Source of the DNA: Azolla caroliniana
Lineage: Eukaryota > Plantae > Polypodiophyta
NCBI GenBank assembly: GCA_043228905.1
Contig: JBHGNT010000002.1
Span: 26,040,001-26,104,000, forward strand
Reading direction: 5' to 3'
Length of the DNA: 64,000 bases
This document shows, piece by piece, positions 12,511 through 46,056 of the stretch. Positions within the stretch are counted from its first letter, which is position 1. Every line of letters starts with the position of its first letter. Made by a program: the position numbers and the translations under genes. The notes beneath the pieces are model-generated. The model was given only the letters and a program-made list of their open reading frames with translations, had not been told where the DNA came from and did no database searches.

Positions 12511-12559
<49 letters not shown>

Positions 12560-14677: not shown

Positions 14678-14781
14678 GAGGTATGAAGGGCCTCAACATG
14701 CTAGCTGCCATGGAGAAGATGAAGAAGAGGAAAACATGAGACGCAGAAAACGGAGCAACAGAGAAAGAACTAGTGTCCAGA

Positions 14782-14848
14782 AGAGAGAGAGAGAGAGAGA
14801 GAGAGAAATGGAGATCGTGAAGAGAGATGGTATGAAGGTGAAGAAGGT

Positions 14849-14899
<51 letters not shown>

Positions 14900-14950
14900 G
14901 TATTCGTATTCGTATTCGTATTGTGTATTTGTATTTGTATTTTGTATTTT
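14782..14950. repeat. (GA)n, (TC)n and (TCGTAT/TGTATT)n microsatellite cluster in the kinesin 5' UTR/promoter
   Basis: GA run at ~14782-14806, TC run at ~14851-14896, hexamer run to ~14950. Confidence 0.9.
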
Positions 14951-16380
14951 TGAGTAGGTTTTTAATTTGTACTCGTATTTATATGTATTTTTGCATTTTC
15001 TTTTTCTATGCATTTTTTATTTTAATATTTTGCAATTATATATATATATATATATATTGAATTTTTTCTATTTTTGTATTTTATGTTGATTTTATTTGCA
15101 TTTTATAATTGATTTTTTTTTTATATTCTTCTTTGTTATTTTTGTAGTTCACAATATTCTCTATTAATCATGTTTAATAACAACATATTGTGTTTTTATT
15201 TGAATTGCGTATCTTTATTACTGGTCTTAATTGATATTTATTGTTTTTAATATGTGTATTTATTCGTTTTAATGATTTTTGCATCATGATTGTGCTATGT
15301 GTGTGCTTATGTGTGTGCTATGTGTGTGTGTGTGTATTTTTTTTCAATTGAATTGTTGCCCCCCCCCCCCAATCTTTGTTCATTCATGTAATAGACATGA
15401 TGATTCTTTTCTTATTACCATAAATACCCTTCCAATGACATACATAAATCTTGCACGAAATAAACCAAATTAAGAATTTTGAAATTCCCTAGATGCCCTC
15501 CTAATCACTCTTAAGGTTTTGCTTGTTAGTTAGCTAATAACTGGTTAATCATTAGCAAACAAAAAAACCCCAGCAAAACATAAACCAAGATTCAACATAA
15601 ACACTGAGAATCCAAAAGTAAGCACCCACAATTTCCGAATGTGGCCAATGCAAGCCCCCAAAAGTTTGGCCAAATCGAGTAATGAATGTGTTTTCGCACC
15701 CATGAAGGAGGATTGAAAGTTTTGTAAATCTGTCATGGGCTCTATAAGCAGCCAACATCCACACATATGCGTTTTTCTCCGACACGTTATAAGGAGAAAA
15801 ACCTCTTAGCCATCTGTAACATACTTCTTTGTTTCCCCAAACACCCTGGGTCAAACCCCCAAATGAGAGAAATGGGGGACCCTGTAATTCCTTTGACACG
15901 CATTGGAAGGAAGGGCACTCAGGGAAATAAAGAAGAAGTGGGGAGGACCATTTGGATAATTAAAGGTCTTTGGGGTATTCATATGTACTTCACTAGATTA
16001 AGACGAGGCAAGCTTCATGAAGTGTTTACATCAATTAATGACATTTATGATTTATTATTCTCTCTCTGATTTCGATTTCTTTGTCACTATTTTCGGGGCG
16101 AAGTCATCAAAATGAGGAGAGGTTTGGTGATCTACGACCAAAAATAAAGTGTTGTTCTCTAAAAGAGTTTAGCAATTGCATGTCGAGCCACACCAAAAAG
16201 TATTGATGTGAACTAAATCGATAACTTGGTCTTTGCCATTTATAATCACATAAGATCAACATTTGAGATAAATTATGTGAGAATTGAGAAGAGCTCAAAC
16301 CATCCCATCCATACGAGAAGGGGACATCATTTCATAGTGTTTTTCTAAATGGAATTAGTTGAATCCTTATGGTAACCAAT

Positions 16381-16653
16381 AGGCACTTGTCTATTTGTAG
16401 GTTGTTGGCAAAGCAATTAAGAAGCCCCCCATTGTTGATGAAGTATCACCATATGATCCAAAATACAATGTTTGCGCATTGATAACAAAGTGACTCAAAA
16501 TGCAACATAAATTGTATAGGCACTTGTCTATTTGTAGGTTGTTGAGAAAGCAACTAAGAATCCCCCCATTGTTGATGAAGTATCACCATATGATCCAAAA
16601 TACAATGTTTGCGCATTGATAAAGAGTGACTCAAAATGCAACATAAATTGTAT
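16381..16653. repeat. Direct tandem duplication, 2 x ~137 bp
   Basis: aggcacttgtctatttgtagg...acataaattgtat starts at 16381 and again at 16518, with a few substitutions. Confidence 0.92.
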
Positions 16654-19600
16654 GTTGTGGAGATTAAAGGCATGTGGTTTATAATAAACTTTGGAGTGGG
16701 AGATGTTATAATGATTTTGAAACGTATGCCTATAGGCACCACACTAATCAAACCATTATGACATGAATATCTCCAGAAAGGCAAACATTTGTGGATAACT
16801 CTACTTAATTGAGAAGGTTCAAAAGGATGAGTTTGATTAAACACATTGCAGACAAATATTTACTTGTTAAATTGATAACAATATGTAGGGTTTCTTGGGT
16901 TTAATAGTCATTGACACACTAATTGTGTTAATAATTTGATACTATAACCAGATTTTATTGATCTTAATATGAAATTAGGAAAGGCATCCTCAGTTCAAAG
17001 GTGGATATTGTTATCTCGATAACAATCTTTTCCTGACTCAAGGCAAATTACCAACATTTACAAATCCAAACCAGGTTTATTTATGTTTGCGCCTTCTCAA
17101 CTTTATCTAAATAAAGAAACTTAAGTTGGGTGTGTTGGGAGATGTTGGCCATGATGGATGGCTTGAGATTCTTCTCAATTCAAACCCAAGGGAACAATGA
17201 CACATGTCGAAATGTTTGGTGATTTATGTAGTTGACTTTGGACCATTTGATTAATCTTAGCATCGTGCTTGACCAAGTGTTTATTCTCTCGGAGTGATGG
17301 AATTGGTGAATGGGATTATGTGAAGGCAAGCAAGATGACTCCATCATACAATTTTCAGGATAGATCCCATCATACAATTTTCAAGATAGATCCAATATTG
17401 CGAGTTTATTGTTACAAATATTACTTAAGGCTTATGGTTCATGGGCATTTGGATCTATGGTTATTTTATACTTTTTGAGTCTTCATGTGCAACTATTTGC
17501 GTGTACAAGTATGTGTGATTCCTAAGACGAGTTATTCTTCCTTGGTTGTCATTGTTCGTCCTTCAGTTGTACATCAACATCACACCACATCTAAGTTCTT
17601 TGTATCATATATTTTCGTACATATAAACTTGTTGTGTGTTGTTGTTCATCATTGTGCTCACCGTCTCACACTAATGATGTGGTTTAGTACGGTATGATAC
17701 ATGAAATATTTCAATTAAGTACTTTTTCATAATATGATGAGCATTGTGCTAAAAATAATGGTGTAAATAACCATAAAATTATCAATTCTAATTTTTTCAT
17801 TAAAAATGTAAGAAGTACTATGCTACTAAGATGACGTTTGATTTTGTCAAACTGTTGTTTTTCTAGAAGAATCCATGTGTTTTAGGCATGGTATATGCAC
17901 ATTGTCTACTTATATCTAATTAGATTCATATTAATATTGTCTTGCATGAGTGTACAATCCACAATAAAGTGTCAAGAATTTACCATAAGAGATGTAGTGA
18001 GACTCTTAATAGACAATGCATGCAAAAATTGAAGTACATAGATACAATAGCTCATCAATCTACAACTCTCGAACTTTGATTTCATTTAACAATAGTTTAA
18101 CAAATTGCTTATTTGTAGCTCATCCCTATTCATGTAAGAGCATTTTCAAATATGTATGAATGTATGCTACTAAGAGAGAAGCCTACTTTAGAAGTGTGAG
18201 TCAACTCATAGGTTTTGGGTTCAAATTTGTTTTTTTCCAAAACAAAATATCCTTCCATTAGTTTTAAAAAACCTATCAAGTGCAAACTACAAAAGAGATG
18301 AAAAAGAAGAGGAAAAAGGACTATCCCAATGACTAGCCATGGATCCTGCCGCCTACTTTCATCATACCAGAAAATGACATCATAATAATTAGAAACCTTA
18401 CACAGGCCTTCAAGGATACAGTTGTATAGCATCCTCATTCTTATCCTACTCAATATATCCCAATAACATGGCAAGCCGTTGTATCATATCTCCTCGAATC
18501 ATATGTGATAAATGGCGACCTTCAACTTGCCTTCATTACATAAGACTTTGCAAGTATAATTATTCGTGATCGCTCCAACATGTATGCTATCATCTCAAAA
18601 CCGTAGGTCCAATCGAAGCTTCAACCATTGTTTCACAACGTCTTGTATATCCTAAGTAAACAAGCTTCCAACCTGGTTCTATATTCCCTCCATTCTCTTG
18701 AAACTACCTCGTATACATGAAGACAATAAACCACTACACACTTAGCAAAGGTTTTGCGAACTCGCAACTTGTGAGTTTGAGCTTTTGCATTTCTTCATTT
18801 AGCATTGCCTTAAAGAAGACAATTGTGTTGTTTTCAACCATTGCCCTTGTGTTTTGGGAAATGATTTGGGAAATGATTTGAAAAGTCATCTTTCAAGGAG
18901 CTAGCTATAAGTAGGCATAACCTCAAACAAAAAATACACAGACGTCTTTTAAAGAACACAAACATCAACTAATAATTAAATTAACTTTTTTATTGTTATA
19001 ATAATTATGCCATTAAACTCGCACTAAAAACATGAATCATTATTGTAATGAACGGAACATCAACAATATAAGATTAATGATATAAGGAACAAGCTTTACA
19101 CTATAGTTCACATTGGTAGAATGGTTATATTTCAAATTGGACTAGCCTTCCAAACACATAATGTACGAGGGTGAGCTTTGTGGCATGAAAACTCTATAGT
19201 ATGGTAAACTCTTGAATCTATAAATGTTTAAATTGATAGGTGATAAGAAATCATGTTTGTATTTGGTAAATTGGTAAACTCATTACAAACACTAAATCAT
19301 GATTTAGTGTTTGTTATGAGCTTGTGATCCATGTATAGCTCAAATATTGTTGATCCACGCCGTCTCTTAAATATGATTTATACGTTTTGGTTGCAAACTA
19401 GAACAAATGCCATATGTTTTGAGGACTCTTAACATGATATGGTTGCTTGGCCTTATCCCTATACTTGTCAATTCATATTGCTTACATGGTGAAATTTAGT
19501 GTGGTCTGATTTTGTTACGTCTTATTGTCTAGAAAGTCATCAAAGAACCCTTGTTTTTTTTTAATGCATCACACTTGCTTACTAAGACTCGCTACTTAAG

Positions 19601-19689
19601 TGGTTTGGTATTCACTTGGATACCAAGTTTTGCTCTGTATTCAGTGATACCTTTCATTGTTTTGAATAAACAAAACCTAAAAAAGAGTT

Positions 19690-22156
19690 TTTTGGAGGCA
19701 ATTGGCCGATGGCTTGCCGACTGCAGATGCGTGGATCCTCGCAGGGGATTTTAACATGACTTTGTACACAGAGGACAAGGTGGGGGGCATGCATACGGTG
19801 GTGCAAGGGTTAGAGTTAGTTGCATGGAATTTGCTTGATGGGCAGAATGGGGGTGAAAGATGCTTGGTATGTACTAAAAAAGCCTCGAAGCTCACTAAGC
19901 TTCTCAAGAGCAGGCTGCAATATCAATGGCTTTTGTATGTCTCGCATAGACAAAATACACATAACCTCGGAACTGGAAAAATATGGCAGTTGTTAGAGTT
20001 ATGATCTAACGTAAGCATATGATAAGGATAAAACATATATTAAATAAGAAAGGAGAGAGAGAAAGAAGGGTGTTGATCCACCCGACCACCCCTGAGCGAA
20101 GGGATCGAGACGGACTCGAGCCTTGATCGGCGTCCCATACCATCGTCATGGCGTCGAGTTGTACATGGTGCTGGTGCACTTGCTACAAGAGTTTACCCAC
20201 CACGAAACAGAGTCTCGTCGAAATCAAGAGATGATGAAATGAGGTTAGCTAAGCCTCATATTTATAGCGAGACCCAAGACCCCCATGCAAATTCACACTT
20301 GGCCTAATGGGTTGTCTCAATCCCGAGGATTAAAAGTAATCCTCCCCTTCTTTACACTCTCGTTTAACCCTAACACTTATCCACGTGTATAGAATACTAC
20401 GGTAAATTCTCACCACAGGATATTATATGTTCATGCCCGTAACAACATCCTTGTTGAAATCATCATAGGTTCGGCTTACTCTGATCATATGTTGGTTAAG
20501 ATTACATTGGTCAATGAGAGGAGGCACAAAAGGGACTGCAACCTGAGGATTAGAAGTAAACTTTTTGAGGATGCAGAGGTGGGAAGGAAGATAAGGAGAA
20601 TATGGGAAAATAATCCAGCTAGTTGTGGTGCACTGGATAATCTTCGAGGAAAGATTATTGAAACTTCAATGTATTTGCCTGAAGAGACTAAAAATAGAAT
20701 TGTGAGGTCTAAGGAAAGAGAGGTGAGATTAAGAAGATCGATAGCGGTTGCCAAAAGAATGCTTCAGAAAAATCCCAAGTGTCAATGGTCTAGATCAAGT
20801 CTTGAGGTTGCTAAAGAAACACTACAACGGTTGATCGCATCTAGAAACAAGATGGTATTCAGGAGTTCGACAACATGGTGGAGCGCGAATGGGGACAAGT
20901 TGAACCAACACTTTTTTAAGTATAAAAAACCGAGAACAACAATAGCTACAATCCTAAGCTGGTTAAGGAGGATGGTTCACTGTCGGAGGATGTATCAGAG
21001 ATCATGGAGGCGGTCACAACACACTATAGTGGGCTACTCTCATCTAGTTATAGTATCCCCGACCAGCCTTCATTGGCAAAACTTGTACTGGAGGGAATGC
21101 AACCAGGAATTTCAGTTGATGCACAAGTTAATTTGTCCGGGCCATTCTTGGAAGAGGAGGTGTCAGACGCTTTGGCAAGTATATGTAGCACGTCTATTCC
21201 ATGCTTTGACGGATTATCAAAAGTTTTTTTTGAATTTTTTTGGGAAGTGATTAAAGTTGACTTGGTTGCTGGTCTAAACGAGGCATGGGATATTGGGTAC
21301 TTACTTGAGCATTTTAAGGAGGGGCTGATATTTCTAATTCCTAAGGTACATGGTATAATAACGGATGTGAGGCAATGGAGACCGATTACGTTGATCAACA
21401 CAATCTATAAGATTTTTGCTAATATTCTGGCCAAGAGGGTCAAACCCCACTTGCATGCGCTAATTAATGTTGGACAAACAGGAAATTTCATGAAAAATAG
21501 ATGTATAATTGATAATGTGTTGAACTTTAGGTGGCGATTGCCTTGGGAAAGACATATTGCATGTCTCATGCTTGACTTCGAGAAGGCATATGACAAAATA
21601 CAGTGGCCTTTTTTAGACAAAGTCATGGAGAGGTTGGGACTACCCTCAAAATGGATATCGGCAGCGTTGGCCCTTTACAAAGGAAGCTTGAGTAGGGTGT
21701 TGGTGTTAGGGCATCGGGGCCCACCAATTCCATTATGTAGGTCTATCATGTAAGGGTGCCCGTTGGCCCCCTATCTTTATTTATTTATTTCAGAGGCATT
21801 CTCTTTCTTTTTAAATAGACTGGATGCAGGAATACAGGGATTAGTTGTCCCACATGCGTGCACGGATTTGCTGGACTCAATGTATGTAGATGACACTATG
21901 CTCTATCTGCAAGGCAACGACGGATTGAATTGTTTTGTAAAGCATCAGGAGGGAAAAATTAATTGGAACAAAAGTAGAGGGTTCTATGTAAGTCCAAACC
22001 CATGGTCGCTTTGGCGCGCTAATGTTGATTTTCAATGGGTCCCTAATGGAATGGCTGTTAAATATTTGGGCTTTTTGGTGGGAGTTGAGATTCACAAAAA
22101 TCACCAGCTAAATCAAGTGAAAGACAAAATTAGAAAAAATCTTCGGTTATGGGCAT
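19690..22156 (+). mobile_element. Decayed L1-like LINE ORF2 (APE endonuclease + reverse transcriptase), interrupted at 19991-20444 and truncated at 22156
   Basis: Endonuclease motifs WILAGDFN, SRIDKI and SDH. RT motifs WRPITLIN..YKIFA..LAKR, LDFEKAYDKIQW, SIM*GCPLAPYLY, YVDDT and KYLG. Contains frameshifts and stops. Confidence 0.9.
19991..20444 (-). mobile_element. Probable solo LTR (454 bp) inserted in the LINE endonuclease
   Basis: TGTTA...TAACA inverted termini and a minus-strand CTATAAATA box near 20260. Removing it plus 5 bp restores the LINE frame (KYGS|LVEIIIGSAYSDH). The flanking 5-mers gcagt and acatc match only 2/5. Confidence 0.6.
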
Positions 22157-22537
22157 TGTTAAGAATCAAGCTCAACTTGGTCTAGTGTGTGAACTCACCT
22201 TGAGAGTGAATAGACACTCCAACGGTCAAGAGTCACCATTATGTCACCTCTTTGTATTCTAGCATTTAGTATGAGTCATAGAATCATATTCTATAACACA
22301 TAACTTATGAGCTTTCACATTCCCCATGCTCCACGAGTCTTGTAGTTAATAAAGAGAGAGGGTGACTATATAAAGCACCCTCCTCCCACCTTGTATAGTG
22401 TTAAGTATTTCTCCTTTGTTAATATACTTTTACCTTGCGTATTCTCTGTGTCTTACTCTCACTCTCTCTCCCTCTCTCATACACACACATAACTCACATC
22501 TCTTCCGCTTAACAAGAATCATATCCGATTCTTTACA
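22157..22537 (+). repeat. 5' LTR of Copia copy A (381 bp)
   Basis: tgttaagaatc...tctttaca with a TATATAAA box at ~22367. Reverse-complement homolog of 31053-31450. Confidence 0.92.
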
Positions 22538-22549
22538 TGGTATCAGAGC
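22538..22549 (+). other. Primer-binding site (initiator tRNA-Met)
   Basis: TGGTATCAGAGC immediately after the LTR. Confidence 0.92.
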
Positions 22550-25500
22550 GATTTGGTAGCTCGATCTAGCCCATTCGCCTCATCGTGATCGTGTGTTGTG
22601 CTCCACGCCGACGACCAAGAACCGGCTCATCGCTATCGTAGCTTCGCTACATAGCTCGCATTCGAAGAGAGAAGAAGAAGAAGAAGAATTGACATAATGA
22701 ATACTCAAATGGGGAGCGCTCTCCCTACCGAGAAGTTGGATCGAAACAACTTCGCATCTTGGGAGTACAAGATGCACCAATACCTTGTCGGACAAGGCTA
22801 TTGGAGCTACATCAAAGGAGCGCATGAAGACTGACCCGCCGAAGCGGCTCCCGGATACGCGACATGGGAGCAAGCCGCAAGCCGCGTGATGTATTTCTTG
22901 GCGACATGTGTTCACAATCACATGCTCGGATACATTCGTGAAGCCAAGACGCCGAAGGAGGCATGGGAAAATCTACGAAAGATTTTTGCGACAAACACAA
23001 CCGCAAGAAGGCTTCAACTCCACCAAGAGTTGAACAACATTCAACAAAGGGACATGTCCATTACGACATACACCTCGTAGATCAAGGAGCTTTGCGATTC
23101 TCTCGGCTCCATAAGCATAAATATCGATGATGATGACATGGTTCAAATATGCCTCGGTGGCCTCGCACCACGGTTCGGCACGATGCGAACCGCCGTTCTA
23201 GCACGAGAGAAATCTCCCTCCTTCTTCGAGCTCCAATCCATGCTATTGGTCAAAGGAAACCATGTGCGTACAAGGAGCAATGAGTCGGAAGACCACATGC
23301 TCTACACGCACTCGAATGGAGCAAGAGGACGCGGACGGTCGAGAGGCCGATTCGGCCGAGGACAAGGCGGATGAGGTCCGACCTACGATAACAACTCCCA
23401 ATTTCGGCCGGAAAACGGAAGCCAACGACGAACCTTCGCAAGAAGGGGGAGCGTCCACTCAGGCCCGAGCTCGGCCACCACAAAGAAGAGTGCCGAAAGA
23501 AGATGTGTTAATCGGCTTCCACAAGCCGACAACTCATGAATTACACGCACAATTCCGACTACGAAGAGTATAGCGAAATGTACGGGCACAAATACGACCA
23601 TGGCGCAATGTTCATGATGAAACATAGAGCAAACTCTATGTCGGCCTCTACCTCAACTAGTGCCCTATATCCTGAGGACGTATGGTTTGGTCTCTGTTCG
23701 GCCAAAGAGGTAAGCAAACATACATTAAAAATGTCTTGCATGTTACCACCATCACGAAGAATTTGGTCTTGGTCGGCCAAATGGTTGAGCAAGGGATGCA
23801 AGTACGATTCGACCAAGAAGAGTGCTTCATCGAAAAAGAAGGCCGAATCATCGCACGCGAAAAGCACGAAAGCTGACTCTAACATAGAGCTATGGCATAA
23901 GCGAATCGGCCACATCAAACTCAAAGCGATGAAAACGAATCATCGCACGCGGAAGAAGAGAGGGCCGGATGTTCATTCTCGATTCACACGAGATGACATC
24001 CGCCATGTTCGCGAAAAGCACAAAAGCTGACTCCGACATAGAGTTATGGCATAAGTGAATCGGCCACATCAATCTCAACAAACTCAAAGCAATGAAAACG
24101 AAAGGAGTTGTCATCGGACTCCCAACATTCAAAGAGAAGGAGATTGAAGGTGTATGCGAAGCGTGCCAATTCGGCAAGCAACACCGACACCCATTCCCGA
24201 AAGAGTGGAACGTAAGCAAAGGTCTACTCGACGTAGTTCATTCCGACGTATGGGGACCGGCGCAGACGGCTACATTCGGCGGATGCCGATATTACGTGCT
24301 CTTCATCAACGACTTTTCTAGGCACACTTGGATCTATCCGATGCGGCAAAAGAGCGAAGTGTTCAGACACTTCCAAAAATTCAAGAATGAAGTTGAGAAA
24401 GCCACGGGCCGACATGTACGATGTCTCCGATCGGATGGCGGCAAGGAGTACTTCTCGGACGATTTCACGGCATATCTCCGAAAGGAAGGAATTCGACGAG
24501 ACTTCACTTGCCGACACACTCCGCAACAAAACGGGGTAGCCGAGCGCAAAAATCGGCGCAAAAAGCTTGACCCGAAGTCGGAGAAATGTATTCTCGTAGG
24601 ATACTCATTGGAGCAAAAGGGGTACAAGTGCTACAACCCCTCAACTCGAAAATCTCAAGTAAGTCGAGACGTCATTTTTGATGAGTGCACATCTTGGTAC
24701 ACACCAGAGAAAATCTCAACTCTGACTCCGCTCGACCCGGAATCCACCGAACAAGAGATAGAGGATGAAGATTGCCTTACGCGCATGTTCGAAGAAAGTC
24801 CGATCACGACCCGACTAAGCGGACCACAAGAGCCTTTGAGCGATCAAAGCACATCACGGCCTAGCCTGGAGATGGACAAAGGCAAGGCGAAAATGCCGGA
24901 ATACGAAGACCATCGCTTCGACGATGATGATGAGTCGACTCACTCACTCGACAGTGAGTTCGGCGGCTTCGATGTACCAATCAGAGCAAAGAAAGCCCTC
25001 ATCTCTACAAATGAAAAGCTCCGTCGCTCCACTTGTGAAAAGAATCCAGTCAACCGATTCGGCTAGAACGACTACATGGCATATCATTATGCCTTTATGA
25101 TGAAGGTGGCGACAGTACGCGAGCCAGAAACATTTTTCGAAGCAGCCAAGGATTCGCGATGGATCAAACCATTAATGAGGAGATCCAGGCACTACGAAAG
25201 AATGAGACATGGGATCTCGTTCCCACCTCACCACACAAAAAGGCGATCAGATGCAGATGGATTTACAAAGTGAAGTACAACGCCGACGGTTCTGTCAACC
25301 GCTACAAAGCGTGACTCGTAGCGAAAGGCTACGCCCAAACGCACGGGGTTGACTACGAGGAGACCTTTGCCTCGGTGTGAAAGATGACGACGGTACGGAC
25401 CGTAATTGCGCTTGCCGCGGCGAAAGGGTGGCACCTCCATCAAATGGACGTCAAGAACGCTTTTCTACAAGGCGAATTAGAAGAGGAGGTGTACATGATA

Positions 25501-26690
25501 CAACCACCCGGCTTCGGATCACGCATTCATCCGAAAGTTGTGTGCTGACTCAAGAAGCCACTCTACGGCCTCAAGCAAGCACCGCGTGCTTGGCATTCGA
25601 AGATAACGCAATATCTTCATCAAATCGGCTTCCGTATGTCAAAATCGGACAACTCCCTCTACATACGAAGTGATTCCGCAAGTCTGATCGTCATCATCTT
25701 ATATGTGGATGATCTAGTCATTGGAGGTGAGCATCTCGTCGAAATCAATAAGGTCAAATTCCTCCTTTCCGACAAGTTTGAGATGACGGACATGAAGGAG
25801 CTCCACTACTTCCTCGGCATCGAGGTAATTCGGACTCCGGCCGGAATCATGATCTCTTAACAGCACTACATCCTCAACTTGTTATACAAGTTCGATATGG
25901 TTGAGTGCAAATTCACGGCAACCCCGCTCGATCGCAATCTCAAACTGGATGCGAACTCTGACACCAAAGCGTGTGAGCCGACTCAGTATCGGCAACTCAT
26001 CGGAAGTCTCATCTACCTCACGATCACTCGACCCGATCTCAGTTATTCGGTCCGTCTCCTTAGCCAATTCATGCAAACACCGCGTGATACTCACTTGGAT
26101 TGCACTAAGTGAGTTCTACAATATGTGAGCGGCACAATGGATTGGGGCATCCTCTACAAGACCGTGATGCCAATACAACTCGAGGGGTACACAGTCGCCG
26201 ATTGGGCTGGCTACAAAGCCGATAGCAGATCAACCTCCGTATTTGTTTTCTCCCTCGGCAGCGGAGCAATATCCTGGAGTAGCAAGAAGCAGCCTACCGT
26301 TGCTCTTTCAGTACGGAGGCGGAATACAAGGGCACAACCGTAGCCGTATGTGAAGTCGTATGGCTCAAAAGGATACTCAAGGATCTGGGCGTACCCATCA
26401 AGGATCCGACATCCCTTTACTACAACAACATGAGCAATATCTATCTGGCTCGGAACCCGATGTTCCACGCGCGGACAAAACACATTGAAGTGCACTATCA
26501 CTTCATCCGAGAGCGCGTTCTAGCTGGCGATGTAGACCTACAACACATTAGCACCAATCTTCAAACGACCGACATCTTCACTAAAGGCTTAGGAGCCGAC
26601 AAGCTATGACAATTCATGGCCGATGTCGGATTGACGATCCCTGACCTGCCAAGCTTGAGTGGGAGTACTGAAGATATTACGCAATAGCAC

Positions 26691-29600
26691 GTGGATTCCC
26701 AAGGCTTTAGTGAAGATGTCGGTCGTTTGGAGATTTGCGCTAATCTATTGTAGGTCGACATCGCCAGCTAGAACGCGCTCTCGGATGAAGTGATAGTGCA
26801 CTTTGATGTGCTTTGTCCGTGCGTGGAACACCGGGTTCCGAGCCAGATAGATATTGCTCATGTTGTCGCAGTAATGGGAAGTCGGATCCTTGATGGGTAC
26901 GCCCAGAACCTTAAGTATCCTTTTGAGCCATACGGCTTCACATGCGGCCATTGTTACTCCCCTGTATTCCGCCTCTATGCTTGAAAGAGCGACGGTTAGT
27001 TGCTTTTTGCTGCTCCAGGATATTGCTCCGCTACTGAGGGAAAAAACAAATACGGAGGTTGATCTTCTATCAGCTTTGTAGCCGGCCCAATCGACGTTTG
27101 TGTACCCCTCGAGTCGTATTGGCGTCGCGGTCTTGTAGAGGATGTCGCAATCCATTGTGCCGCTCACGTATCGTAGAACTCGATTAGCGCAATCCAAGTG
27201 AGTATCACGCGGTGTTTGCATGAATTGGCTAAGGAGACGGACCGGATAACTGAGATCGGGTCGAGTGATCGTGAGGTAGATGAGACTTCCGATGAGTTGC
27301 CGATACTGAGTCGGCTCACACGCTTTGGTGCCAGAGTTCACATCCAGTTTGAGATTGCGATCGAGCGGGGTTGCTGCGAATTTGCACTCAGCCATACCGA
27401 ACTTGTATAACAAGTTGAGGATGTAGTGTTGTTAAGAGATCATGATTCCGGCCGGAGTCCGAATTACCTCGATGCCGAGGAAGTAGTGGAGCTCCTTCAT
27501 GTCCGTCATCTCAAACTTGTCGGAAAGGAGGAATTTGACCTCATTGATTTCGACGAGATGCTCACCTCCAATGACTAGGTCATCCACATATAAGATGATG
27601 ACAATCAGACTTGCGGAATCGCTTCGTATGTAGAGGGAGATGTCCGATTTTGACATACGGAAGCCGATTTGATGAAGATATTGGGTTATCTTCGAATGCC
27701 AAGCACGTGGTGCTTGCTTGAGGCCGTAGAGTGGCTTCTTGAGTCGGCATACAAGTTTCGGATGGGTGCTCGAGTTGAAGCCGGGTGGTTGTCTCATGTA
27801 CACCTCCTCTTCTAATTTGCCTTATAGAAAGGCGTTCTTGACGTCCATTTAATGGAGGTGCCACCCTTTTGTCGTGGCAAGCGCAATTACGGTTCGTACC
27901 GTTGTCATCTTTGCGACCGGGGCAAAGGTCTCTTCATGGTCAACTCCGTGCGTTTGTGTGTAGCCTTTCGCTATGAGTCGCGCTTTGTAGCGGTTGACGG
28001 AACCGTCAGTGTTGTACTTCACTTTGTAAATCCATCTGCATCCGATCGCCTTTTTGTGTGGTGAGGTGGGAACGAGATCCCATGTCTCGTTCTTCCGTAG
28101 TGCCTGGATCTCCTCATTCATGGTTTTGATCCATCGCGGATCCTTGGTTGCTTCGGAAAATGTTTCCGGCTCGCATATTGTCGCCACCTTCATCATAAAG
28201 GCATAGTGATATGCCATGTAGTCGTTCTAGCCGAATCGGCTAACCGGATTCTTTTCACAGGTGGAGCGACGGAGCTTTTCATTTGTAGAGATGAGGGCTT
28301 TCTTTGCTCTGATTGGTACATCGAAGCCGTTGAACTCACTGTTGAGTGAGTGAGTCGACTCATCATCGTCGAAGCGATGATCTTCGTATTCCGGCATTTT
28401 CGCCTTGCCTTTGTCCATCTCCAGGCTAGGCCGTGATGTGCTTTGATCACTCAAAGGCTCTTGTGGTCCGCTCAATCGGGTCATGATCGCACTTTCTTCA
28501 AACATGCGCGTAAGGCGATCTTCATCCTCTATCTCTTGTTCGGCGGATTCCGGGTCGAGCAGAGTCGTAGTCGAAGTTGTCTCTGGTGCATACCAGGATG
28601 TGGACTCGTAAAAAACGACGTCTCGACTTACTTGAGATTTTCGAGTTGAGGGGTTGTAGCACTTGTACCCCTTTTGCTCCAGTGAGTATCCTACAAGGAT
28701 ACATTTCTCCAACTTCGGGTCAAGCTTTTGACTCTTCTCGTCGGGGATGTGCACGTACGCGCGCCGAATATCCGGGTGTGTGATAAGTCCGGCTTCTTTC
28801 CGAAGTATTTTTCCTGCGGAGTGACCTCGTGCACTCTAGATGTTGTGCACTGGTTCATTAGGTAGACAGCCGTATTTGCAGCTTCGGCCCAATGTGACTT
28901 GGGCATATGCTTCTCATTCATTATGGCCCGCACTACTTCGAGGATGTGCCGATTTTTGTGCTCAGCTACTCCGTTTTCTTGCGGAGTGTGTCGGCAAATG
29001 AATTCTCGCCGAATTCCTTCCTTTCATAGATACGTCGTGAAATCGTCCGAGAAGTACTCCTTGCCACCATCCGATCGAAGGCATCGCACATGACGACCAA
29101 TGGCGTTTTCGACTTCATTTTTAAACCTTTGGAAGTGTCTAAACACTTCGCTCTTTTGCCGCATCGAATAGAGCCACGTGTGCCTGGAGCAGTTGTCGAT
29201 GAAGAGCACGTAATATTGGTATACGCCGAATGTAGCCATCTGCGTCGGTCCCCATACGTCGGAATGGACTACGTCGAGTAGACCTTTGCTCACGTTCCGC
29301 TCTTTCAGGAATGGTTGTCGGTGTTGCTTGCCGAATTGGCACGCTTCGCATACACCTTCAATCTCATTCTCTTTGAATATCGGGAGTCCAATGACGACTC
29401 CTTTCGATTTCATTGCTTTGAGTTTGTTGAGATTGATGTGGCCGATTCGCTTGTGCCATAACTCTATGTCGGAGTCGGCTTTCATGCTTTTTGCAAACAT
29501 GGCGGATTTCATCTCGTGTGAATCGAGAATGAACATCCGGCCGTCTCTTCTTCCACGCACAATGATTCGGCCCTCTTTTTCGATGAAGCGCCCTTCTTGG

Positions 29601-31450
29601 TCGAATCGTATTTGAATCCCTTGCTCAACCATTTGGTCGACCAAGACCAAATTCTTTGTGATGGTGGGAACATGCAAGACATTCTTAATGTATGTTTGCT
29701 TACCTCTTTCGCCGAACAGAACATTGCCAATATGCCGAATCGGGTGCGTAGTGTCATCTTCGGTTTCGACATAACCCGGTCGCTTCGGCTCTCGAAGTTC
29801 GAGAACCCATTCTTTATGAGATGTCATATGGTTTGAGGCTCCGGAGTCAAAAAACCATATGTCCTCTGAATTGAGGGTACTAGTTGAGGTAGAGGCCGAC
29901 ATAGAGTTTGCTCTATGTTTCATCATGAACATTCCGCCACAGTCGGAGTTATGTGCATACATTCCGCCACGATCTTTGTAGTCGGAGTTGTGCCCGTACA
30001 TTCCGCTATACTCTTCGTAGTCAGAATTGTGCGCGTAGTTCGTGAGTTGTCGGCTTGTGGAAGCCGATTCGCGCATCTTCTTTCGGCACTCTTCTTCGTG
30101 GTGGCCGAGCTTTCTGCAATATCCGCATTTGGTTGCGTTTTGACGGCTCGGCCGAAGTGGAAACTCCCCCTTCTTGCGAAGGTTCCTCGTTGGCTTCCGT
30201 TTTACGGCCGAAATTGGGAGTTGTTGTCGTAGGTCGGACCTCGTCCGCCTTGTCCTTGGCCAAATCGGCCTCTCGCTCGTCTGCATCCTCTTCCTCTGTT
30301 CGAGTGTGTGTAGAGCATGTGGCCTTCCGACTCATTGCTCCTTGTACGCACGTGGTTTTCTTCGACCAATAGCATTGATTGGAGCTCGAAGAAGGAGGGA
30401 GATTTCTCCCTTGTTAAAACCGTGGTGCGAGGCCGTCGAGGCATACTTGCACCATCTCATCATCATTGATATTTACGCTTATCGAGCCGAACGAATCACA
30501 GAGCTCCTTGATCTTCAAGGTGTATGTCGTGATGGACATGTCCCTTTGTTGAATGTTGTTCAACTCTTGGTGGAGTTGAAGCCTTCTTGCGGTTGTGTTC
30601 GGCGCAAAAATCTTTCGTAGATTTTCCCATGCCTCCTTCGGCGTCTTGGCTTCGCGAATGTAGCCGAGCATGTGATCATGAACACATGTTGCCAAGCAAT
30701 ACATCACGCGGCTTGCGGCTTGCTCCCATGTCGTGTATTCGGGAGCCGTTTCGACGGGTCGGTCTTCATGCGCTCCTTTGATGTAGCTCCAATAGCCTTG
30801 TCCGACAAGGTATTGGTGCATCTTGTACTCCCAAGATGCGAAGTTATTTCGATCCAATTTCTCGGTAGGGAAAGTGCTCCCCATTTGAGTATTCATTATG
30901 TCGATTCTTCTTCTTCTTCTTCTTCTTCTTCTCTCTTCGAATGCGAGCTATGTAGTGACGCTACGATAGCGATGGGTCGGTTCTTGGTCGTTGACGTAGG
31001 ACACAACGCACGCAGATGGGCTAGATCGAGCTAGCAAGCCGCTCTGATACCATGTAAAGAATCAAGAGATGGATTCTGTGCAGCGGAATAGATATGAACT
31101 GTGTGTGTGTATGAGAGAGAGAGAGAGAGAGATAGTGAGAGAGACAAGGAGTAAGACACAGAGAATACACAAGGTAAAAGTATATTAACAAAGGAGAAAG
31201 ACTCAACATTTTACAAGGTGGGAGGAGGGTGCTTTATATAGTCACCCTCTCTCTTCATTAACTACAAGACTCATGGAGCATGGGGAATGTGAAAGCTCAT
31301 AAGTTATGTGTCATAGAATATGATTCTATGACTCATACTAAATGGTAGAATACAAAGTGGTGACATAATGGTGACTCTTGACCGTTGGAGTGTCTATTCA
31401 CTCTCAAGGTGAGTTCACACACTAGACCAAGTTGAGCTTGATTCTCAATA
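26691..31450 (-). mobile_element. Ty1/Copia LTR retrotransposon copy B (same family as A, opposite orientation; truncated at the RNaseH end, no 3' LTR)
   Basis: LTR 31450-31053 and PBS 31052-31041. Gag starts at 30896. Also zinc knuckle CGYCRKLGHHEEEC, protease WFFDSGAS, integrase, RT LYVDDL and RNaseH, ending at DIFTKALG (~26700). Frameshifted and contains stops. Confidence 0.95.
31053..31450 (-). repeat. 5' LTR of Copia copy B (398 bp)
   Basis: Reverse complement of the copy A LTR. The outer TG reads TA and the internal (CT)n is longer. Confidence 0.92.
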
Positions 31451-33639
31451 GTTTCAAAGCCAAGAAACTAAAACTGAAACAAGTCCATTGCCAATAAGAT
31501 GGACTATTGATGGGTTATGGAAAGGACATACATGGGTTATAGAGTGCCATACATTGGTCATGGATTTATGTAGTGTCATGCCTTCAATGGTAATGTGAGT
31601 CGTGTATGGGACATTGATCAATCTTCCCCCTCCCGTTAGGGCCCAATGTATGCCACTCTATAACCCACATACACATAGAAATGTATACATGTATAAACAT
31701 TGGCATGAATGTGGATATGCATTCAATATTTGCTTGTATAATTAATTACAATCCCCAAAACAACGTGTCATGGTTCAAAACAAAATGTAAGTAAGTGATT
31801 ATATTAATTAACCAATCAAATGGGATTGGTCAAGAAGCATTATCATACAAAAAAGGTCCTAAATTAAAAATAGACAAGTGATACAACAAAATACTTGTGC
31901 TTGTAAAGGTGGCAGCGAATGGATACTACCACTAGGTGGGTGAAAGATTTGCTTTAAATCTTAATACCTTTGTGGAAATTCCATTATCTTAACCCACAAT
32001 GAGCATTTGCAAATGTGTATTAAATGTCCATTCAATATTTATTAAAGAAAACGGAAGTGTCTTTTAACAACAAATATATGCATCGCTTCTTGCCTTGTAT
32101 TTGGAAATAGACTTAGTTTACGTACATACCGTAGGAAAGATAAATACAAAGGGTAAGCATGTTTGTCACCTATACATAATAGAACAAGATCCGTAGAACA
32201 TTGGTAGATCGCTTCTTTGTCTGAATTTCCAACATAGTTTGCACAATAAGAAATAAATCTTCAGATTTAATGAGGCTGAATTTCAGAAAACGATGTTGTA
32301 TTAGGCCAATGGTTGTAGAAATTGGAGTGGATATACGATGGCAGTACGTAGTTCCAAGATGGTTGTTCCCCCCTCCCATTAGATGATAGATGGTGTGAAT
32401 GACACGACAAACATGGAGAACAAACATGTGGGCTATTTAGTGTAAGATAAATAAGTGATGTAGCCCATATGGAAGTAGGTAATGTCTAAAGTTGTGTATT
32501 GTATGTCATTTTAACTAATGGAGTATATTCTTCTTTGGAAAAAATAAAATAAAATAAGAAATAAATCTTATTTCTAAGCAATTCCTTAGGTATTAATATT
32601 ATATCAATGAAGAGGGTTTTTCAATGTTATCACTATAAACCAAACCAAGCCATTAGAATGCACTATGAAGTTAATTATTTAGCAAATTGATACGATAAGT
32701 CATTTACGTGTGGGATTATGCGAAAATGAAAATTGGATGGCAAACTTGTGACTTGACCTCCAGAGTAATAACTTTATAATATGTGTGTGTTTATGTGAAT
32801 GTGAAGAAAGTGGAGGTAAGAGACACTGCCAACATCATGAATCTAAGTTAACCTTGAATGATTATCCCTCACATGTGATATATCACATCATGAAACAACC
32901 CTCAATTTGATTCTCTTGTGATATTTTCCCTAAAATGCTCTTACGTTATATATTTCTCTTCCTATTCACAATTGCAAGAGGGGGGTGACATTGGATCCAA
33001 TGGTTACAAAAGGAAGTAAATTTGTTTCACTAAATGCTTTCATACATGTGAACCAATAGACAAGAGTTGAAATTGAGGAAAAGACACGCATACACGATGT
33101 ATGCTTTGTGCATTATGAACAAAAATTTGGAACTATGGTACCGTGTGTTTAATTATAGCATCAGTATGGGCATATTTGATTATAGCCGTAAAATTGTTTC
33201 CAATTCAAAATTATGAGCAAGATTGATGCACACATGGGCCTTGTTTTGTACCACCATTTAGTTGGATGATGCATTGTATTTAACTTAAAGTTTAATTGTA
33301 ATAATTTCATTGACAAGCTAGAAATTTAGCTAAATGATGAAAACATTGTCTAGAAAATTTACCTAGTACAAGTATTTGCTCAAGTAGTTTTTTACTAGTA
33401 GTCTAACTTGATGTGATTTTAGTTCACTCACGACTAAAGGCATGCATAGTACGTATTAATGATCTCCCAAACTCTCTCACTTTATCTCTTTGTAATTTCT
33501 TAAAGAGGGTGGCTCTTGCCTACATTATGTATTGTAAATTGTTCCCTCTTTACATCATAAGTAATCTCCTTGTTTTGTGCTACATGATGGTATGGGAAAG
33601 AAGAACTAACAAGGAGATAAAAGTTTGTGGCACAAAATG

Positions 33640-36230: not shown

Positions 36231-36420
36231 GTTCATTTTATCTTATGTAAAAAGGCATCTCTCTCTCTCTCTCTCTCTAATATATACATATATATATATA
36301 TAATAGAAGTATACATACTGTCTCTCTAATATGTATATATAGATAGATTTATACAATATAACCATTGCTAGATATTCATTGTAGAGGAGTATATGTATCT
36401 ATCCATAGGAATTTACGAAG

Positions 36421-38130
36421 ATGGACATGAAGATGAACCTTGTTCTTCTTCTTCTTCACCTTACCATGCTCTGTTCCTTTCTTCTTACACCAATGATGAT
36501 GGTGCAGAATGCCATAGCTATAGCAGATGAAACAGAGCTTCTAGTTTCCCCTTTTCCAGAAGAAGAAGAAGAAGAATTGCTCCCCTCAGAAGATATGGTA
36601 GAGTGGGCAGAGAGCAAAGCAGATGATAAACAAGAGGTCCTTGTATTGAAGCTTATGCATAGAGATTCCCCTCTATCTCCATTGAAGAAACAGAGCAATG
36701 ATCATAAACAGGAGAAGAAGCCAGAAGAAGTGTTTGTAGATAGGCTACAGAGAGATGAAAACAGGGTGAAGCAGATAAATGGAAGGGTGAGGAGAGCAAC
36801 GAGGAGAGAGACCAAAGGGGCACACCCTCATGAAGCAGAGACCATAGGAACACACCCTTATGAAGCAGAGACCATAGGGACAATGCCTTATAGAGAGACC
36901 ATAGGAGGAGATCACCCTCCTCAAATCCCTCCTGTAGGAACACTCCCTTATGCAGAGACCATGGGGTATGAAGAGACCATCAAGGCACATGCCATAGGAA
37001 CACCCTCTTATGAAGACCAAAAGCCCATTCCAAGAGGGAGTGCACATCGCTCATTCGATGGTCCACTTATGTCTGGGCTCAACGATGGCAGTGGAGAGTA
37101 TTTCACGAGACTTGGCGTGGGAACCCCCCCTAAGCAAGCATTCATGGTCGTGGACACCGGTAGTGACATCATATGGATCCAATGCGAGCCTTGCATTGAT
37201 TGCTACACTCAAAGAGGACCCATCTTTAACCCTTCGACTTCTAGAACGTTCCGGAAACTCCCATGCACTTCCCCGACGTGTGCCCTCCTGGAGCTCCACG
37301 GATGCGAAGCCAAGACCAATCTTTGCCTCTATCAAGTGGCATATGGAGATGGTTCCTTCACACAAGGTGAGTTTTCCTCGGAAGCTTTGAGCTTCAAAGA
37401 GGCCACCATTAGGAATGTCGCCATTGGGTGTGGGCATGATAATGAGGGCTTATTTGCGGGTGCCTCTGGGCTATTCGGACTTGGAGGTGGAGGCTTGTCA
37501 TTTATATCTCAAGTAGGTAGAGTGTATAAAAAGATTTTCTCGTATTGCTTGATGGATAGAGATAAGGAAGGGTTATCCACTCTCACATTTGGGGGATTGC
37601 CTAGCGGAGTCAACAAGTTCACATCGTTGCTTAGAAACCCGAATTTGGACACATTTTACTATGTGGGCCTTAGTGGGATAAGTGTGGGTGGGATGTTGCT
37701 CCACACCATCCCTGCCACGGCATTTCAAATGGATAGTGTAAATGGGGATGGGGGTGTGATTGTCGACTCTGGAACCTCGGTGACACGTTTGGTTGAGGTT
37801 GCATATGGGCCCCTTCGCTCTGCATTTCGTGCTGCCACCCACACACTTCCTTTTGTAGGCGGTTTCTCACTCTTTGACACGTGCTTTGACCTATCTGGTC
37901 GAACAAGAGTCACTTTACCCACACTTTCCCTCCATTTTGAAGGTGGTGCCTTCATGGACCTTCCCCCCACTAATTATCTAGTCCCTGTCAACACCAAAGG
38001 TACCTATTGCTTTGCCTTCGCCTCCACCTCAGGCCAACTCTCCATCATTGGTAACATCCAACAACAAGGATTTCGCATTGTCTTTGACGTTGCCTCCGCT
38101 CGCTTTGGTTTTGCTCCTAATAGTTGTTAA
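36421..38130 (+). CDS. Secreted pepsin-like (A1) aspartic protease, nepenthesin/ASPG1/APF2-like, intronless, 569 aa
   Basis: Hydrophobic signal peptide, pro-segment LMHRDSP...RLQRDENRV, GSGEYFTRLGVGTP, catalytic DTGS and DSGT motifs, Cys-rich NAP-like insert, IGCGHDNEGLF, and IIGNIQQQGFRIVFD...FAPNSC. Confidence 0.96.
   Translation: MDMKMNLVLLLLHLTMLCSFLLTPMMMVQNAIAIADETELLVSPFPEEEEEELLPSEDMVEWAESKADDKQEVLVLKLMHRDSPLSPLKKQSNDHKQEKKPEEVFVDRLQRDENRVKQINGRVRRATRRETKGAHPHEAETIGTHPYEAETIGTMPYRETIGGDHPPQIPPVGTLPYAETMGYEETIKAHAIGTPSYEDQKPIPRGSAHRSFDGPLMSGLNDGSGEYFTRLGVGTPPKQAFMVVDTGSDIIWIQCEPCIDCYTQRGPIFNPSTSRTFRKLPCTSPTCALLELHGCEAKTNLCLYQVAYGDGSFTQGEFSSEALSFKEATIRNVAIGCGHDNEGLFAGASGLFGLGGGGLSFISQVGRVYKKIFSYCLMDRDKEGLSTLTFGGLPSGVNKFTSLLRNPNLDTFYYVGLSGISVGGMLLHTIPATAFQMDSVNGDGGVIVDSGTSVTRLVEVAYGPLRSAFRAATHTLPFVGGFSLFDTCFDLSGRTRVTLPTLSLHFEGGAFMDLPPTNYLVPVNTKGTYCFAFASTSGQLSIIGNIQQQGFRIVFDVASARFGFAPNSC
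36808..37017 (+). repeat. In-frame ~30-bp minisatellite (GAGACC-anchored, ~6 degenerate units) in the protease pro-segment
   Basis: Units start at 36808, 36838, 36868, 36895, 36955 and 36973. They encode ETKGAHPHEA / ETIGTHPYEA / ETIGTMPYR / ETIGGDHPPQIPPVGTLPYA / ETMGYE / ETIKAHAIGTPSYE. Confidence 0.9.
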
Positions 38131-41333: not shown

Positions 41334-41966
41334 TATTAGAAATATTGAGAATCGAGTAGATAGGTATATAGAGTTACAACTGCAGAGATGGATATATGAA
41401 AACAGAATTTCTATTACATATGAGAGTAGTTCAAAATGGTAGTTTTCCCATGCGCTCACACCTTAGAGCTTAGATAGGATATGGACCGGCTCACTACAAA
41501 ATTAGTGGGGACTAATGATCAATCTGACCACTGTGTGAGAAAAATGACTTATAATCTATGTTTGGTCTTAGTATAAATGTGCAAGTCAGTTGACAATAGT
41601 AGAGATATTCCTTTTCTGTCAACTGACTTGTCATTTAATATGACCCAACTCCCTAGGTACAGGCTAGTGCTAGATAATACTTATCTTGAAGTCAATGACG
41701 CATACTTCAAGACTAAGTACATCGTAACTTGCCCACAAAATATTCTAGCTGACTTGATTAGCCAATCCTTTTATCTATTTCTCTCTTTCCTAAATATATT
41801 GTGTCCTACGCATCTACGGTTTCCTAGATTAACACCTTATCGACCCATATGGTCGAGTTGCACACTAGCCGCTCCTCATTTGGGGCGCTATCACAAAATG
41901 TGCACTCTAAGAGCACATATGGGGATAGATTTACAACTTGGGGCTGATCATTGATTATATCTAACA
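41334..41966 (-). repeat. 3' LTR (633 bp, TG...TA)
   Basis: Near-identical to 46057-46689. Confidence 0.97.
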
Positions 41967-44900: not shown

Positions 44901-45947
44901 TGGCACGTACAACACTTGAGAGAGATGCTTTGTCCCACCGGTCGTTGCTTTGAGGGAGACGGTTCCGGTTCCTTTGGCCGGACATCGAGCATTGTTCCCG
45001 ACCACAACATTGATGGGCTCTTGTAGAGGTGTCCAAGAACTGTACCAGTCACGATTACTGGTCATATGTCGGGATGCTCCACTATCGAGAATCCAAGACT
45101 CATCAACAACTTGAGTGTCAACTGAAGAACACACTTCTTCAGTTGCGACCCATAACTCAAGTTCATCTACGACATTGTTAGCGGACTCGGGCTCTCTCCA
45201 AGAAGTCTTATTAGAACCATTCTTCTCATCCGCCATCTTCTCACCCTTAGTCCTAGAGACAAATGCTGAATCTCCCCTTTCTTCTCTTGTCTTCAGCCGA
45301 AGCTCCTCTTCAAGCAGCATTGCACTTAGTTCATCAAATTTCAAAGGAGTGGGTCGAACCTGAGTGTTCAATGCTGTCACAATGCCATCATACTTGAAAG
45401 GAAGTACTCGAATGCACCGACGAGCCATATCCTCTTGAGAGACGACTACTCCAACAGCCGCCAGCTGATCTTGAAGATCCTTAATCCTTTTTACAAAGGA
45501 TTCTACTTTCTCTCCATCAGCGAGTTTCTCTGCAGCAAGCTGATTTTCGAGATTTTGTATCCTTGTATAGTTTCTGGTCTCATACTGGCTGGCCAATATG
45601 CTCCAAGCTTCATGTGCCCTAGTTGTATGTTGCACTAGTGTTAGTACAGAGTCACATACACCAGTGACTATGGTACATAGCGCATCAGCATTCCTTCTCT
45701 TCCAGGCTCGAAGTAGATCAGCATTTGGAGGAATTGATGTGGTAGGGTGTGCAGGGTCAAAGGTTGCCATGGGCTCAGGGTCTCCCCCTGTGGGTCCCAT
45801 GATTGTTTCCAACAACTCGTAGGAATCCAAAATGGCAGACATTTTGAACTTCCATAGAGTGTAGTTGGTTCCATCTAGCTTTCCATCAGACAATGGAGGT
45901 GGGCGAATGCGCAATGGAGCAGCTGCAACATTCGTGGACAAGGCCAT
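41961..45947 (-). pseudogene. Copia gag-pol polyprotein with one in-frame nonsense codon (44139-44141) and no gag zinc knuckle
   Basis: ORFs 45947-44139 and 44129-41961 are in the same frame, separated by TAG at the conserved Trp of F(W)AEAVNTA. Motifs: [58 protein letters not shown]. Confidence 0.95.
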
Positions 45948-45952
45948 TGATA

Positions 45953-45984
<32 letters not shown>

Positions 45985-46044
45985 ATTTCTCTCTGTTGCT
46001 AGACAGCAACTACCCGTATATACCTAATCTAGATCAACCGCTTG

Positions 46045-46056
46045 GCTCTGATACCA
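46045..46056 (-). other. Primer-binding site (initiator tRNA-Met)
   Basis: Minus-strand TGGTATCAGAGC directly after the 5' LTR. Confidence 0.95.

What the first reader, a model, noticed from the sequence alone, without database searches (positions are those of the whole stretch)
22157..31450. Giant tail-to-tail Copia inverted repeat between two convergent LTR promoters: candidate natural 'Copia-killer' hairpin locus
Seen: two copies of one Copia family each keep a 5' LTR, PBS and near-complete gag-pol. They are fused at their RNaseH ends (~26690) with almost no spacer, and neither has a 3' LTR, so ~4.5-kb homologous arms point toward each other. Known: the 3' LTR normally supplies termination and poly(A), and inverted-repeat TE derivatives such as maize Mu killer make hairpin RNA and siRNAs that silence their family in trans. 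Inference: transcription from either LTR would run into the antisense copy and give multi-kb dsRNA spanning gag to RNaseH, a possible family-wide silencing trigger. The outer flanks (ggcat / gtttc) are not a TSD and the LINE does not resume on the right. This favours two insertions joined by a deletion over a single composite insertion.
Basis: partly seen in the sequence, partly recalled or inferred. Interest (0 to 1): 0.8.

Follow-up and report, generated by a model that had tools for sequence, protein, structure and literature searches.

The report
Two dead retrotransposons fused tail-to-tail
Two broken copies of a very common fern jumping gene face each other with no DNA between them, likely joined by an old deletion and likely swapping stretches of sequence later; their RNA would fold into a long hairpin, but nothing shows that it is made or silences anything.

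Summary
The structure is real. Copia copy A (22157-26699, +) and copy B (31450-26697, -) each keep a 5' LTR, TATA box and PBS, lack the 3' LTR, and match at 92% over 4,308 columns. Family copies show that A ends 12 bp into the 3' UTR, B ends inside RNase H, and they overlap by a 3-bp microhomology with no filler. There is no TSD. Third-position excess (87 of 162 differences) shows two independent lineages, so two insertions joined by a deletion is the likeliest origin. New here: a 400-bp tract differs by only 2.5% (10 differences, 31 expected, p=0.007), and the arms share two premature stops, which points to gene conversion between them. The 'Copia-killer' role is untested and has points against it. 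Both copies are dead and show CG/CHG methylation decay. Both neighbouring genes (kinesin, aspartic protease; the host is a fern) point away. The family is very high-copy. No RNA data were available, and the junction was not bridged independently. This scan has noted similar untested 'killer' candidates on other genomes.

The parts
19681..22156 (+). Broken LINE (non-LTR retrotransposon), cut off by copy A after the RT domain; no 3' part found to the right
   Evidence: Pfam RVT_1 at 20926-21750, E 6e-13; translations; the left limit is approximate
22157..22537 (+). 5' LTR of copy A (TG...CA, TATA box at 22367)
22538..22549 (+). Primer-binding site of A (match to initiator tRNA-Met is recalled, not tested)
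22698..26687 (+). Dead gag-pol of A to its natural stop: 11 in-frame stops, frameshifts, 215-bp integrase deletion, protease-region deletions, ~90-bp local duplication near 23856
24784..25283 (+). Weaker candidate exchange region in A (partner in B about 28020-28510): 26 differences in 497 columns, one shared stop (25064 / B 28229), three shared rare letters; not significant as a tract alone
25704..26103 (+). Likely gene-conversion tract in A (partner in B 27189-27588): 10 differences in 400 columns, 112-bp perfect run, shared stop (25858 / B 27434)
26595..26696 (+). 102-nt unpaired centre: end of A's RNase H and start of its 3' UTR
26697..26699 (.). Junction: 3-bp microhomology shared by A's 3' UTR and B's RNase H, no inserted bases
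26697..30900 (-). Dead gag-pol of B, cut inside RNase H: 6 well-supported in-frame stops and frameshifts
31041..31052 (-). Primer-binding site of B
31053..31450 (-). 5' LTR of copy B (first two letters TA instead of TG, TATA box at 31240)
   Evidence: an 863-bp contig starting 25 bp inside this LTR and running into the flank is in runs X1 and X2

Best explanation
This is a pair of dead copies of a high-copy fern Copia family, facing each other and overlapping by 3 bp, likely joined when a microhomology-mediated deletion removed both 3' LTRs and the DNA between two separate insertions; the arms likely exchanged tracts by gene conversion, and the locus is likely methylated and mostly silent. Shown: orientation, missing 3' ends, 3-bp overlap, no TSD, independent lineages (third-position excess), a low-divergence tract and two shared stops, CG/CHG-biased differences, and outward-facing neighbour genes. 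Inferred: the deletion (at least about 1.2 kb of element sequence plus the rest of the LINE), conversion as the cause of the tract, and silence today. Any read-through from an LTR would form a multi-kb imperfect hairpin and add siRNAs to a family pool, but as a by-product, not as a dedicated trigger.
For: Junction: 9 of 17 family loci align to A through 26699 or beyond, and 9 of 17 align to B down to 26697 or 26696. In 5 of 17 a family LTR starts 193-284 bp after the pol-end motif, with a second purine tract before it in 4. Independent origin: outside the main tract 87 of 162 coding differences are at third positions (p 8e-8), and the copies carry different large indels. Exchange: 10 differences against 31 expected in A 25704-26103 (scan p 0.007; heterogeneity along the arms p 0.0015). 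In that tract A-B distance is 0.02-0.03 while distance to outgroup loci stays at 0.13-0.16, against 0.11 and 0.15-0.19 in the next 490 bp (Fisher p 1e-4, 5e-5, 7e-4 and 0.01 for four loci; 0.24 for a fifth that covers only 43 columns; the loci are not independent tests). Synonymous differences fall to 2 of 133 codons against 60 of 543 (p 2e-4). Two of B's 6 stops are shared with A and absent from the outgroup loci covering them. A shares 5 of 23 letters that are rare in the family but present in B, all within 9 consecutive sites (p 0.03). Methylation-type decay: C-T differences at 116 of 1117 CG, 49 of 449 CHG and 95 of 2605 CHH sites; in the tract all 10 differences are such transitions, 7 of them at CG/CHG. 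High copy: 32,059 contigs of run X1 lay on the 5.9-kb stretch, at summed depth near 1e5 on the element against 55 on the flank (not a copy number). Neighbours: kinesin gene on the minus strand, exons about 14560-6300, and aspartic protease on the plus strand, 36409-38130.
Against: No listed contig bridged the junction in 4 runs, and none laid in X1 or X2 carried the window's letter at 26625, 26738 or 26745. The same gap appears at 27542, 27640 and 27755 in X1, far from the junction, so this is inconclusive. A deletion cannot be told from one end of an inversion without the genome. A protein-level test with mostly distant homologues showed no clustering of shared changes (10 sites, p 0.25). After masking the main tract, no second tract was significant (p 0.09). 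The tract was chosen by a scan of the same data that the Fisher tests use. Both TATA boxes and PBS are intact and neither antisense arm holds AATAAA, so read-through is not excluded.
Confidence: 0.68

Rival explanations
1. A working Mu-killer-like locus: one or both LTRs are transcribed, the RNA folds back, and Dicer products silence or once silenced the family in trans.
For: Two inward-facing LTRs with intact TATA boxes; no 3' LTR; no AATAAA in either antisense arm; very stable fold; 57 perfect runs of 21 nt or more between the arms. An antisense nested EVD insertion was proposed as such a trigger in Arabidopsis (PMC11624286, passages). Ferns have RdDM genes (PMC5569507, passages).
Against: Only 18% of arm-to-arm 24-mers pair perfectly by Watson-Crick identity. 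No host gene faces into the repeat, whereas Mu killer is described as driven by read-through from flanking genes (PMC3440606, passages). The LTR promoters are themselves part of the repeat. The arms show CG/CHG decay, also after the exchange. The family is very high-copy. Many ferns outside Polypodiales lack a prominent 24-nt peak (PMC5569507), and the host's order is not known.
Confidence: 0.1
2. One end of an inversion: two copies in the same orientation were broken in A's 3' UTR and B's RNase H and rejoined, so the missing 3' halves sit together at a second breakpoint.
For: Gives the same junction, the same missing TSD and the same missing LINE remainder.
Against: Needs two breaks in two members of one family at nearly homologous places. 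No reciprocal junction lies in the window. Arm-to-arm exchange fits either history.
Confidence: 0.1
3. One integration of two cDNAs joined tail-to-tail outside the chromosome, or a fold-back copy of a single element, followed by loss of one flank.
For: Both outer ends are 5' LTR ends, which integrase can use. An earlier unchecked note in this genome describes a copy-back Copia with a TSD (e1-10619871).
Against: No TSD and no LINE remainder, so a second event is needed. A fold-back of one element would not give third-position excess.
Confidence: 0.06
4. Assembly artefact: two unlinked copies mis-joined, or arms mixed during polishing.
For: Very high-copy family; junction not bridged in 4 runs of contigs.
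Against: A mis-join through a repeat would join homologous positions in the same orientation, not a 3' UTR to RNase H in reverse. Fold-back reads would give near-identical arms, not 92% with separate indels. Mixing of arms would give perfect tracts, while the tract holds 10 methylation-type transitions. Shared rare letters and stops tie the two copies to each other.
Confidence: 0.06

Closest known systems
Mu killer (Muk) of maize (PMC1563492, PMC3440606, PMC8224964 and bioRxiv 10.1101/2020.01.09.900282; passages read)
   Same: Inverted arrangement of transposon 5' ends plus coding sequence; a transcript across it would form a long hairpin.
   Different: Muk is an inverted duplication of one DNA transposon, its transcript is identical to part of mudrA, read-through from flanking genes is reported, and small RNAs and trans-silencing are shown. 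Here there are two old, separate retrotransposon insertions, 92% alike, with no inward-facing gene and no RNA evidence.
Antisense nested EVD (Copia) insertion in Arabidopsis rdr6 lines (PMC11624286, passages)
   Same: Two Copia copies in opposite orientation; hairpin or convergent transcription from the 5' LTRs proposed as a silencing trigger.
   Different: New, identical copies of an active element, nested with LTRs kept; the authors did not test siRNA output. Here the copies are not nested, both 3' LTRs are gone and both are dead.
Inverted tandems of transposons in Drosophila (PMC5932611, passages)
   Same: Head-to-head and tail-to-tail pairs, including LTR elements and junctions in internal sequence, arise in repeat-rich DNA.
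   Different: Their clear cases keep a target-site motif at the junction; none is present here.
Intra-element gene conversion in plant LTR retrotransposons (PMC5751070, abstract); palindrome-arm conversion (PMC7023750, search listing only)
   Same: Nearby repeats exchange sequence without loss of DNA.
   Different: Those concern the two LTRs of one element, or gene-bearing sex-chromosome palindromes; here it is the pol regions of two inverted dead copies.

Membership tests
Ty1/Copia LTR retrotransposon | Domain order gag, protease, integrase, RT, RNase H | tested here: met
   Pfam Retrotran_gag_2, Pol_BBD, gag_pre-integrs, rve, SH3_retrovirus and RVT_2 in that order in B; homologues align to both copies
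Ty1/Copia LTR retrotransposon | 5' LTR with TG...CA ends followed by a PBS | tested here: met
   A: TG...CA. B: TA...CA, one change at the end. PBS in both
Intact or single-event LTR insertion | Two direct LTRs, polypurine tract, TSD, open gag-pol | tested here: not met
   No 3' LTR, no TSD, 11 and 6 stops
Mu-killer-type silencing locus | Inverted repeat of transposon sequence able to fold back | tested here: met
Mu-killer-type silencing locus | Arms identical or nearly identical to each other and to the target element | tested here: not met
   Arms 92% alike; of 32,059 X1 contigs laid, 3,517 were 99% or more like the stretch and 20,093 under 95%; an active family member was not identified
Mu-killer-type silencing locus | Transcription from a promoter outside the repeat | tested here: inconclusive
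   Both neighbouring genes found point away; 143 of 207 non-element ORFs of 55 aa or more were scanned; non-coding promoters and distant untranslated exons are not excluded
Mu-killer-type silencing locus | Hairpin transcript and derived small RNAs | not testable with these tools
   No RNA holder listed
Mu-killer-type silencing locus | Dominant, heritable silencing of active family members in trans | not testable with these tools
   Needs lines with and without the locus

The most novel reading that the evidence does not exclude
A long-lived, LTR-driven hairpin locus in a fern that makes siRNAs against a whole high-copy Copia family, with arm-to-arm gene conversion keeping the reverse-transcriptase part of the stem well paired: a natural retrotransposon counterpart of Mu killer outside flowering plants.
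Probability: 0.08. Interest if true: 0.7.

Novelty: new member of a known kind. Interest (0 to 1): 0.3.

Why it matters
As it most likely stands, this is a clean record of how plant genomes decay transposon DNA: a microhomology join of two insertions, with signs of later exchange between the inverted arms. Such exchange would also make the copies look younger than they are. If RNA data showed locus-specific siRNAs, it would be a natural test of whether hairpins from rearranged copies start or hold silencing of LTR retrotransposon families, which has been proposed for EVD but, in the passages read, not tested. The 8% of differences between the arms makes that test easy, since reads can be assigned to A or B.

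Tried and rejected
No whole genome is held for this window, so the reciprocal junction, the partner TSDs and the frequency of such pairs could not be searched. Run search: no RNA holder listed among 22 runs; this is no evidence on expression. Contigs of 4 runs laid on 26595-32480: no listed piece bridged the junction, the 863-bp contig at B's outer end has only 25 letters inside the LTR (under the tool's 31-letter rule), and the lack of cover on part of the flank in X3 and X8 is not read as an empty site. Viral contigs: no relative. Protein-level clustering test of shared changes: not significant, p 0.25; most homologues are too distant to separate family traits from decay. Second tract scan: p 0.09. 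Nested insertion of B into A rejected: no LTR or 3' UTR sequence follows 31450. Chromosomal fold-back rejected: the inverted match stops at the LTR ends. Location inside a host intron: not supported. 24-mer matching to L001-L017 was low (0-6% perfect in pol), but these loci are only 73-85% like the arms there and may come from another species or subfamily, so this was not used against the silencing idea. The Copia lineage was not assigned; no lineage library was at hand. No absolute age is given, as no fern rate came from any call. Literature searches listed no paper on a deletion-fused tail-to-tail Copia pair with arm conversion or on such a locus in a fern; the library lacks most subscription papers, and no supplements were read.
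Full report
Observation. Self-comparison of the window shows one long inverted repeat between 22159 and 31448. Copy A lies on the plus strand from 22157, copy B on the minus strand from 31450. They match at 92.1% over 4,308 columns, with K2P distances of 0.06-0.12 by region and separate large indels. Each starts with an LTR (381 and 398 bp), a TATA box at LTR position 211 and the same PBS. Pfam domains run gag, protease, integrase, RT, the Copia order. No other copy of the LTR is in the window. The flanks GGCAT and GTTTC are not a TSD, and the LINE that A interrupts was not found to resume. Both copies are dead: 11 in-frame stops in A and 6 in B that 5 or more of 10 homologues support (1 and 5 weaker calls dropped), plus frameshifts.

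Host and family. The neighbouring aspartic protease has its best named hits in the ferns Adiantum and Ceratopteris (68-70%), so the host is inferred to be a fern; its order is unknown. Of 22 runs listed, 20 hold part of the stretch, from 10 studies, none on record as RNA. On 26595-32480, 19,017 to 32,059 contigs per run were laid, at summed depth near 1e5 on the element against 55 on the unique flank in X1. This is no copy number, but it marks a very abundant family, present in the three coded organisms laid.

The junction. A motif scan gave 17 family loci. They show that pol is followed by a 3' UTR and then the LTR, which starts 193-284 bp after the motif in 5 of 17. Nine of 17 align to A through 26699 or beyond, and 9 of 17 align to B down to 26697 or 26696. 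So A keeps its natural pol stop (26685-26687; relative P0109 ends at the same place) and 12 bp of UTR, B is cut about 100 bp before the end of RNase H, and the two overlap by 3 bp with no filler. At least about 1.2 kb of element sequence is missing, plus the LINE's 3' part. A short overlap without filler is what microhomology-mediated end joining leaves (established knowledge; PMC4806543, passages, describes such repair in maize centromere repeats). Independent confirmation failed: no listed contig bridged the join, but the same tables miss the window's private letters at three places far from it in X1, so this is inconclusive. An 863-bp contig from 25 bp inside B's LTR into the flank is in X1 (0 differences; may be the source sample) and X2 (3 differences, another study).

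Two insertions, not one copy folded back. Outside one tract, 87 of 162 coding differences between the arms fall on third codon positions (p 8e-8). The two lineages therefore diverged under selection while active, before inserting (inference). The inverted match stops at the LTR ends, and nothing of A follows B's LTR, which rejects chromosomal fold-back and nesting. A deletion between two nearby opposite insertions is the simplest history; one end of an inversion cannot be excluded without the genome.

Exchange between the arms. Divergence is uneven (chi-square p 0.0015). A 25704-26103, facing B 27588-27189, has 10 differences where 31 are expected from its sequence contexts (scan p 0.007). Distances to outgroup loci drop only slightly there (0.13-0.16 against 0.15-0.19) while A-B distance drops from 0.11 to 0.02-0.03, and synonymous differences nearly vanish (2 of 133 codons against 60 of 543), so protein conservation does not explain it. 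Two of B's six stops are shared with A (25858/27434 and 25064/28229) and are absent from the outgroup loci that cover them (2 loci and 1 locus). One search showed 40 of 736 variant rows; 31 lie in B's arm; 3 were dropped as not private to B and 5 as lying in gaps of A. Of the other 23, A shares B's rare letter at 5, all within 9 consecutive sites (p 0.03). Gene conversion between the neighbouring inverted arms is the best reading (about 0.7). The alternative is a segment taken from a common defective donor during reverse transcription. Against: a protein-level test was not significant (p 0.25), and no second tract passed a scan (p 0.09). The 490 bp next to the centre are not homogenised (0.11). 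Conversion within plant LTR elements is known (PMC5751070, abstract).

Could it silence its family? Shown: 991 nt around the centre fold into one stem at -788 kcal/mol (z -83 against 20 shuffles), the TATA boxes are intact, and neither antisense arm holds AATAAA. Against: differences between the arms are about three times denser at CG (116 of 1117) and CHG (49 of 449) than at CHH (95 of 2605), and all 10 in the converted tract are such transitions, 7 at CG/CHG, which fits lasting methylation, also after the exchange. The kinesin gene about 7 kb to the left and the protease gene 5 kb to the right both point away, so the only inward promoters found lie inside the repeat. Mu killer, by contrast, is reported to be read from flanking genes (PMC3440606, passages) and to be identical to its target (bioRxiv 10.1101/2020.01.09.900282, passages). 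Only 18% of arm-to-arm 24-mers are perfect, 57% within two mismatches. Ferns have RdDM genes, but many outside Polypodiales lack a strong 24-nt peak (PMC5569507, passages). High-copy families are expected to make antisense RNA from read-through and nested copies anyway (PMC3316501, passages). A role in the past, soon after the join, cannot be excluded.

Relation to what is known. It works, at most, like a Mu-killer-type hairpin source, but fails the near-identity feature, and the RNA and genetic features could not be tested, so it is not filed as one. Inverted pairs of transposons, including LTR elements, are described in Drosophila (PMC5932611, passages), and an antisense nested Copia was proposed, untested, as a trigger in Arabidopsis (PMC11624286, passages). 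Six searches listed no report of a deletion-fused Copia pair with arm conversion. Earlier notes of this scan describe similar untested candidates in other genomes; none matched this sequence or place.

Verdict. Observation confirmed, origin supported, silencing function untested and unlikely (about 0.1). New member of a known kind; interest 0.3. The likely conversion between the arms is the one addition of substance.

Noticed in passing
window 41334-46689 (-): Young full-length Copia of another family (about 66% like A in RT): LTRs differ at 2 of 634 bp, TSD TGAAA, ends TG...TA rather than TG...CA, and a single stop between two long ORFs, inside integrase.
   Followed up: partly
window about 6300-14900 (-): Multi-exon kinesin gene, transcribed away from the repeat; CT/GA microsatellites near its likely 5' end. 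The kinesin-7 label is recalled from motifs, not from a call.
   Followed up: partly
window 36409-38130 (+): Single long ORF for an A1 aspartic protease with a short repeated peptide in its N-terminal part; best named hits are fern proteins.
   Followed up: partly
window 3317-3526 (+): NF-YA (CBF-B) domain exon, converging on the kinesin gene.
   Followed up: no
L001-L017: The family's 3' UTR is built of short tandem units and, in 4 of the 5 loci where the LTR start was found nearby, ends in a near copy of the purine tract at the end of pol, so two such tracts lie about 200-280 bp apart.
   Followed up: partly
L014:791-908: A gag-like piece follows a 3' LTR in the same orientation, suggesting a tandem or rearranged copy.
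   Followed up: no
window 63182-63613, 57852-58304, 50097-50729, 16379-16653: Short tandem duplications (about 144, 227, 160 and 137 bp units), 75-99% alike.
   Followed up: no
window 31731-32205: Run X3 (organism B) holds two versions of this flank, one nearly identical to the window and one about 8% different, as in a hybrid, polyploid or paralogue.
   Followed up: no
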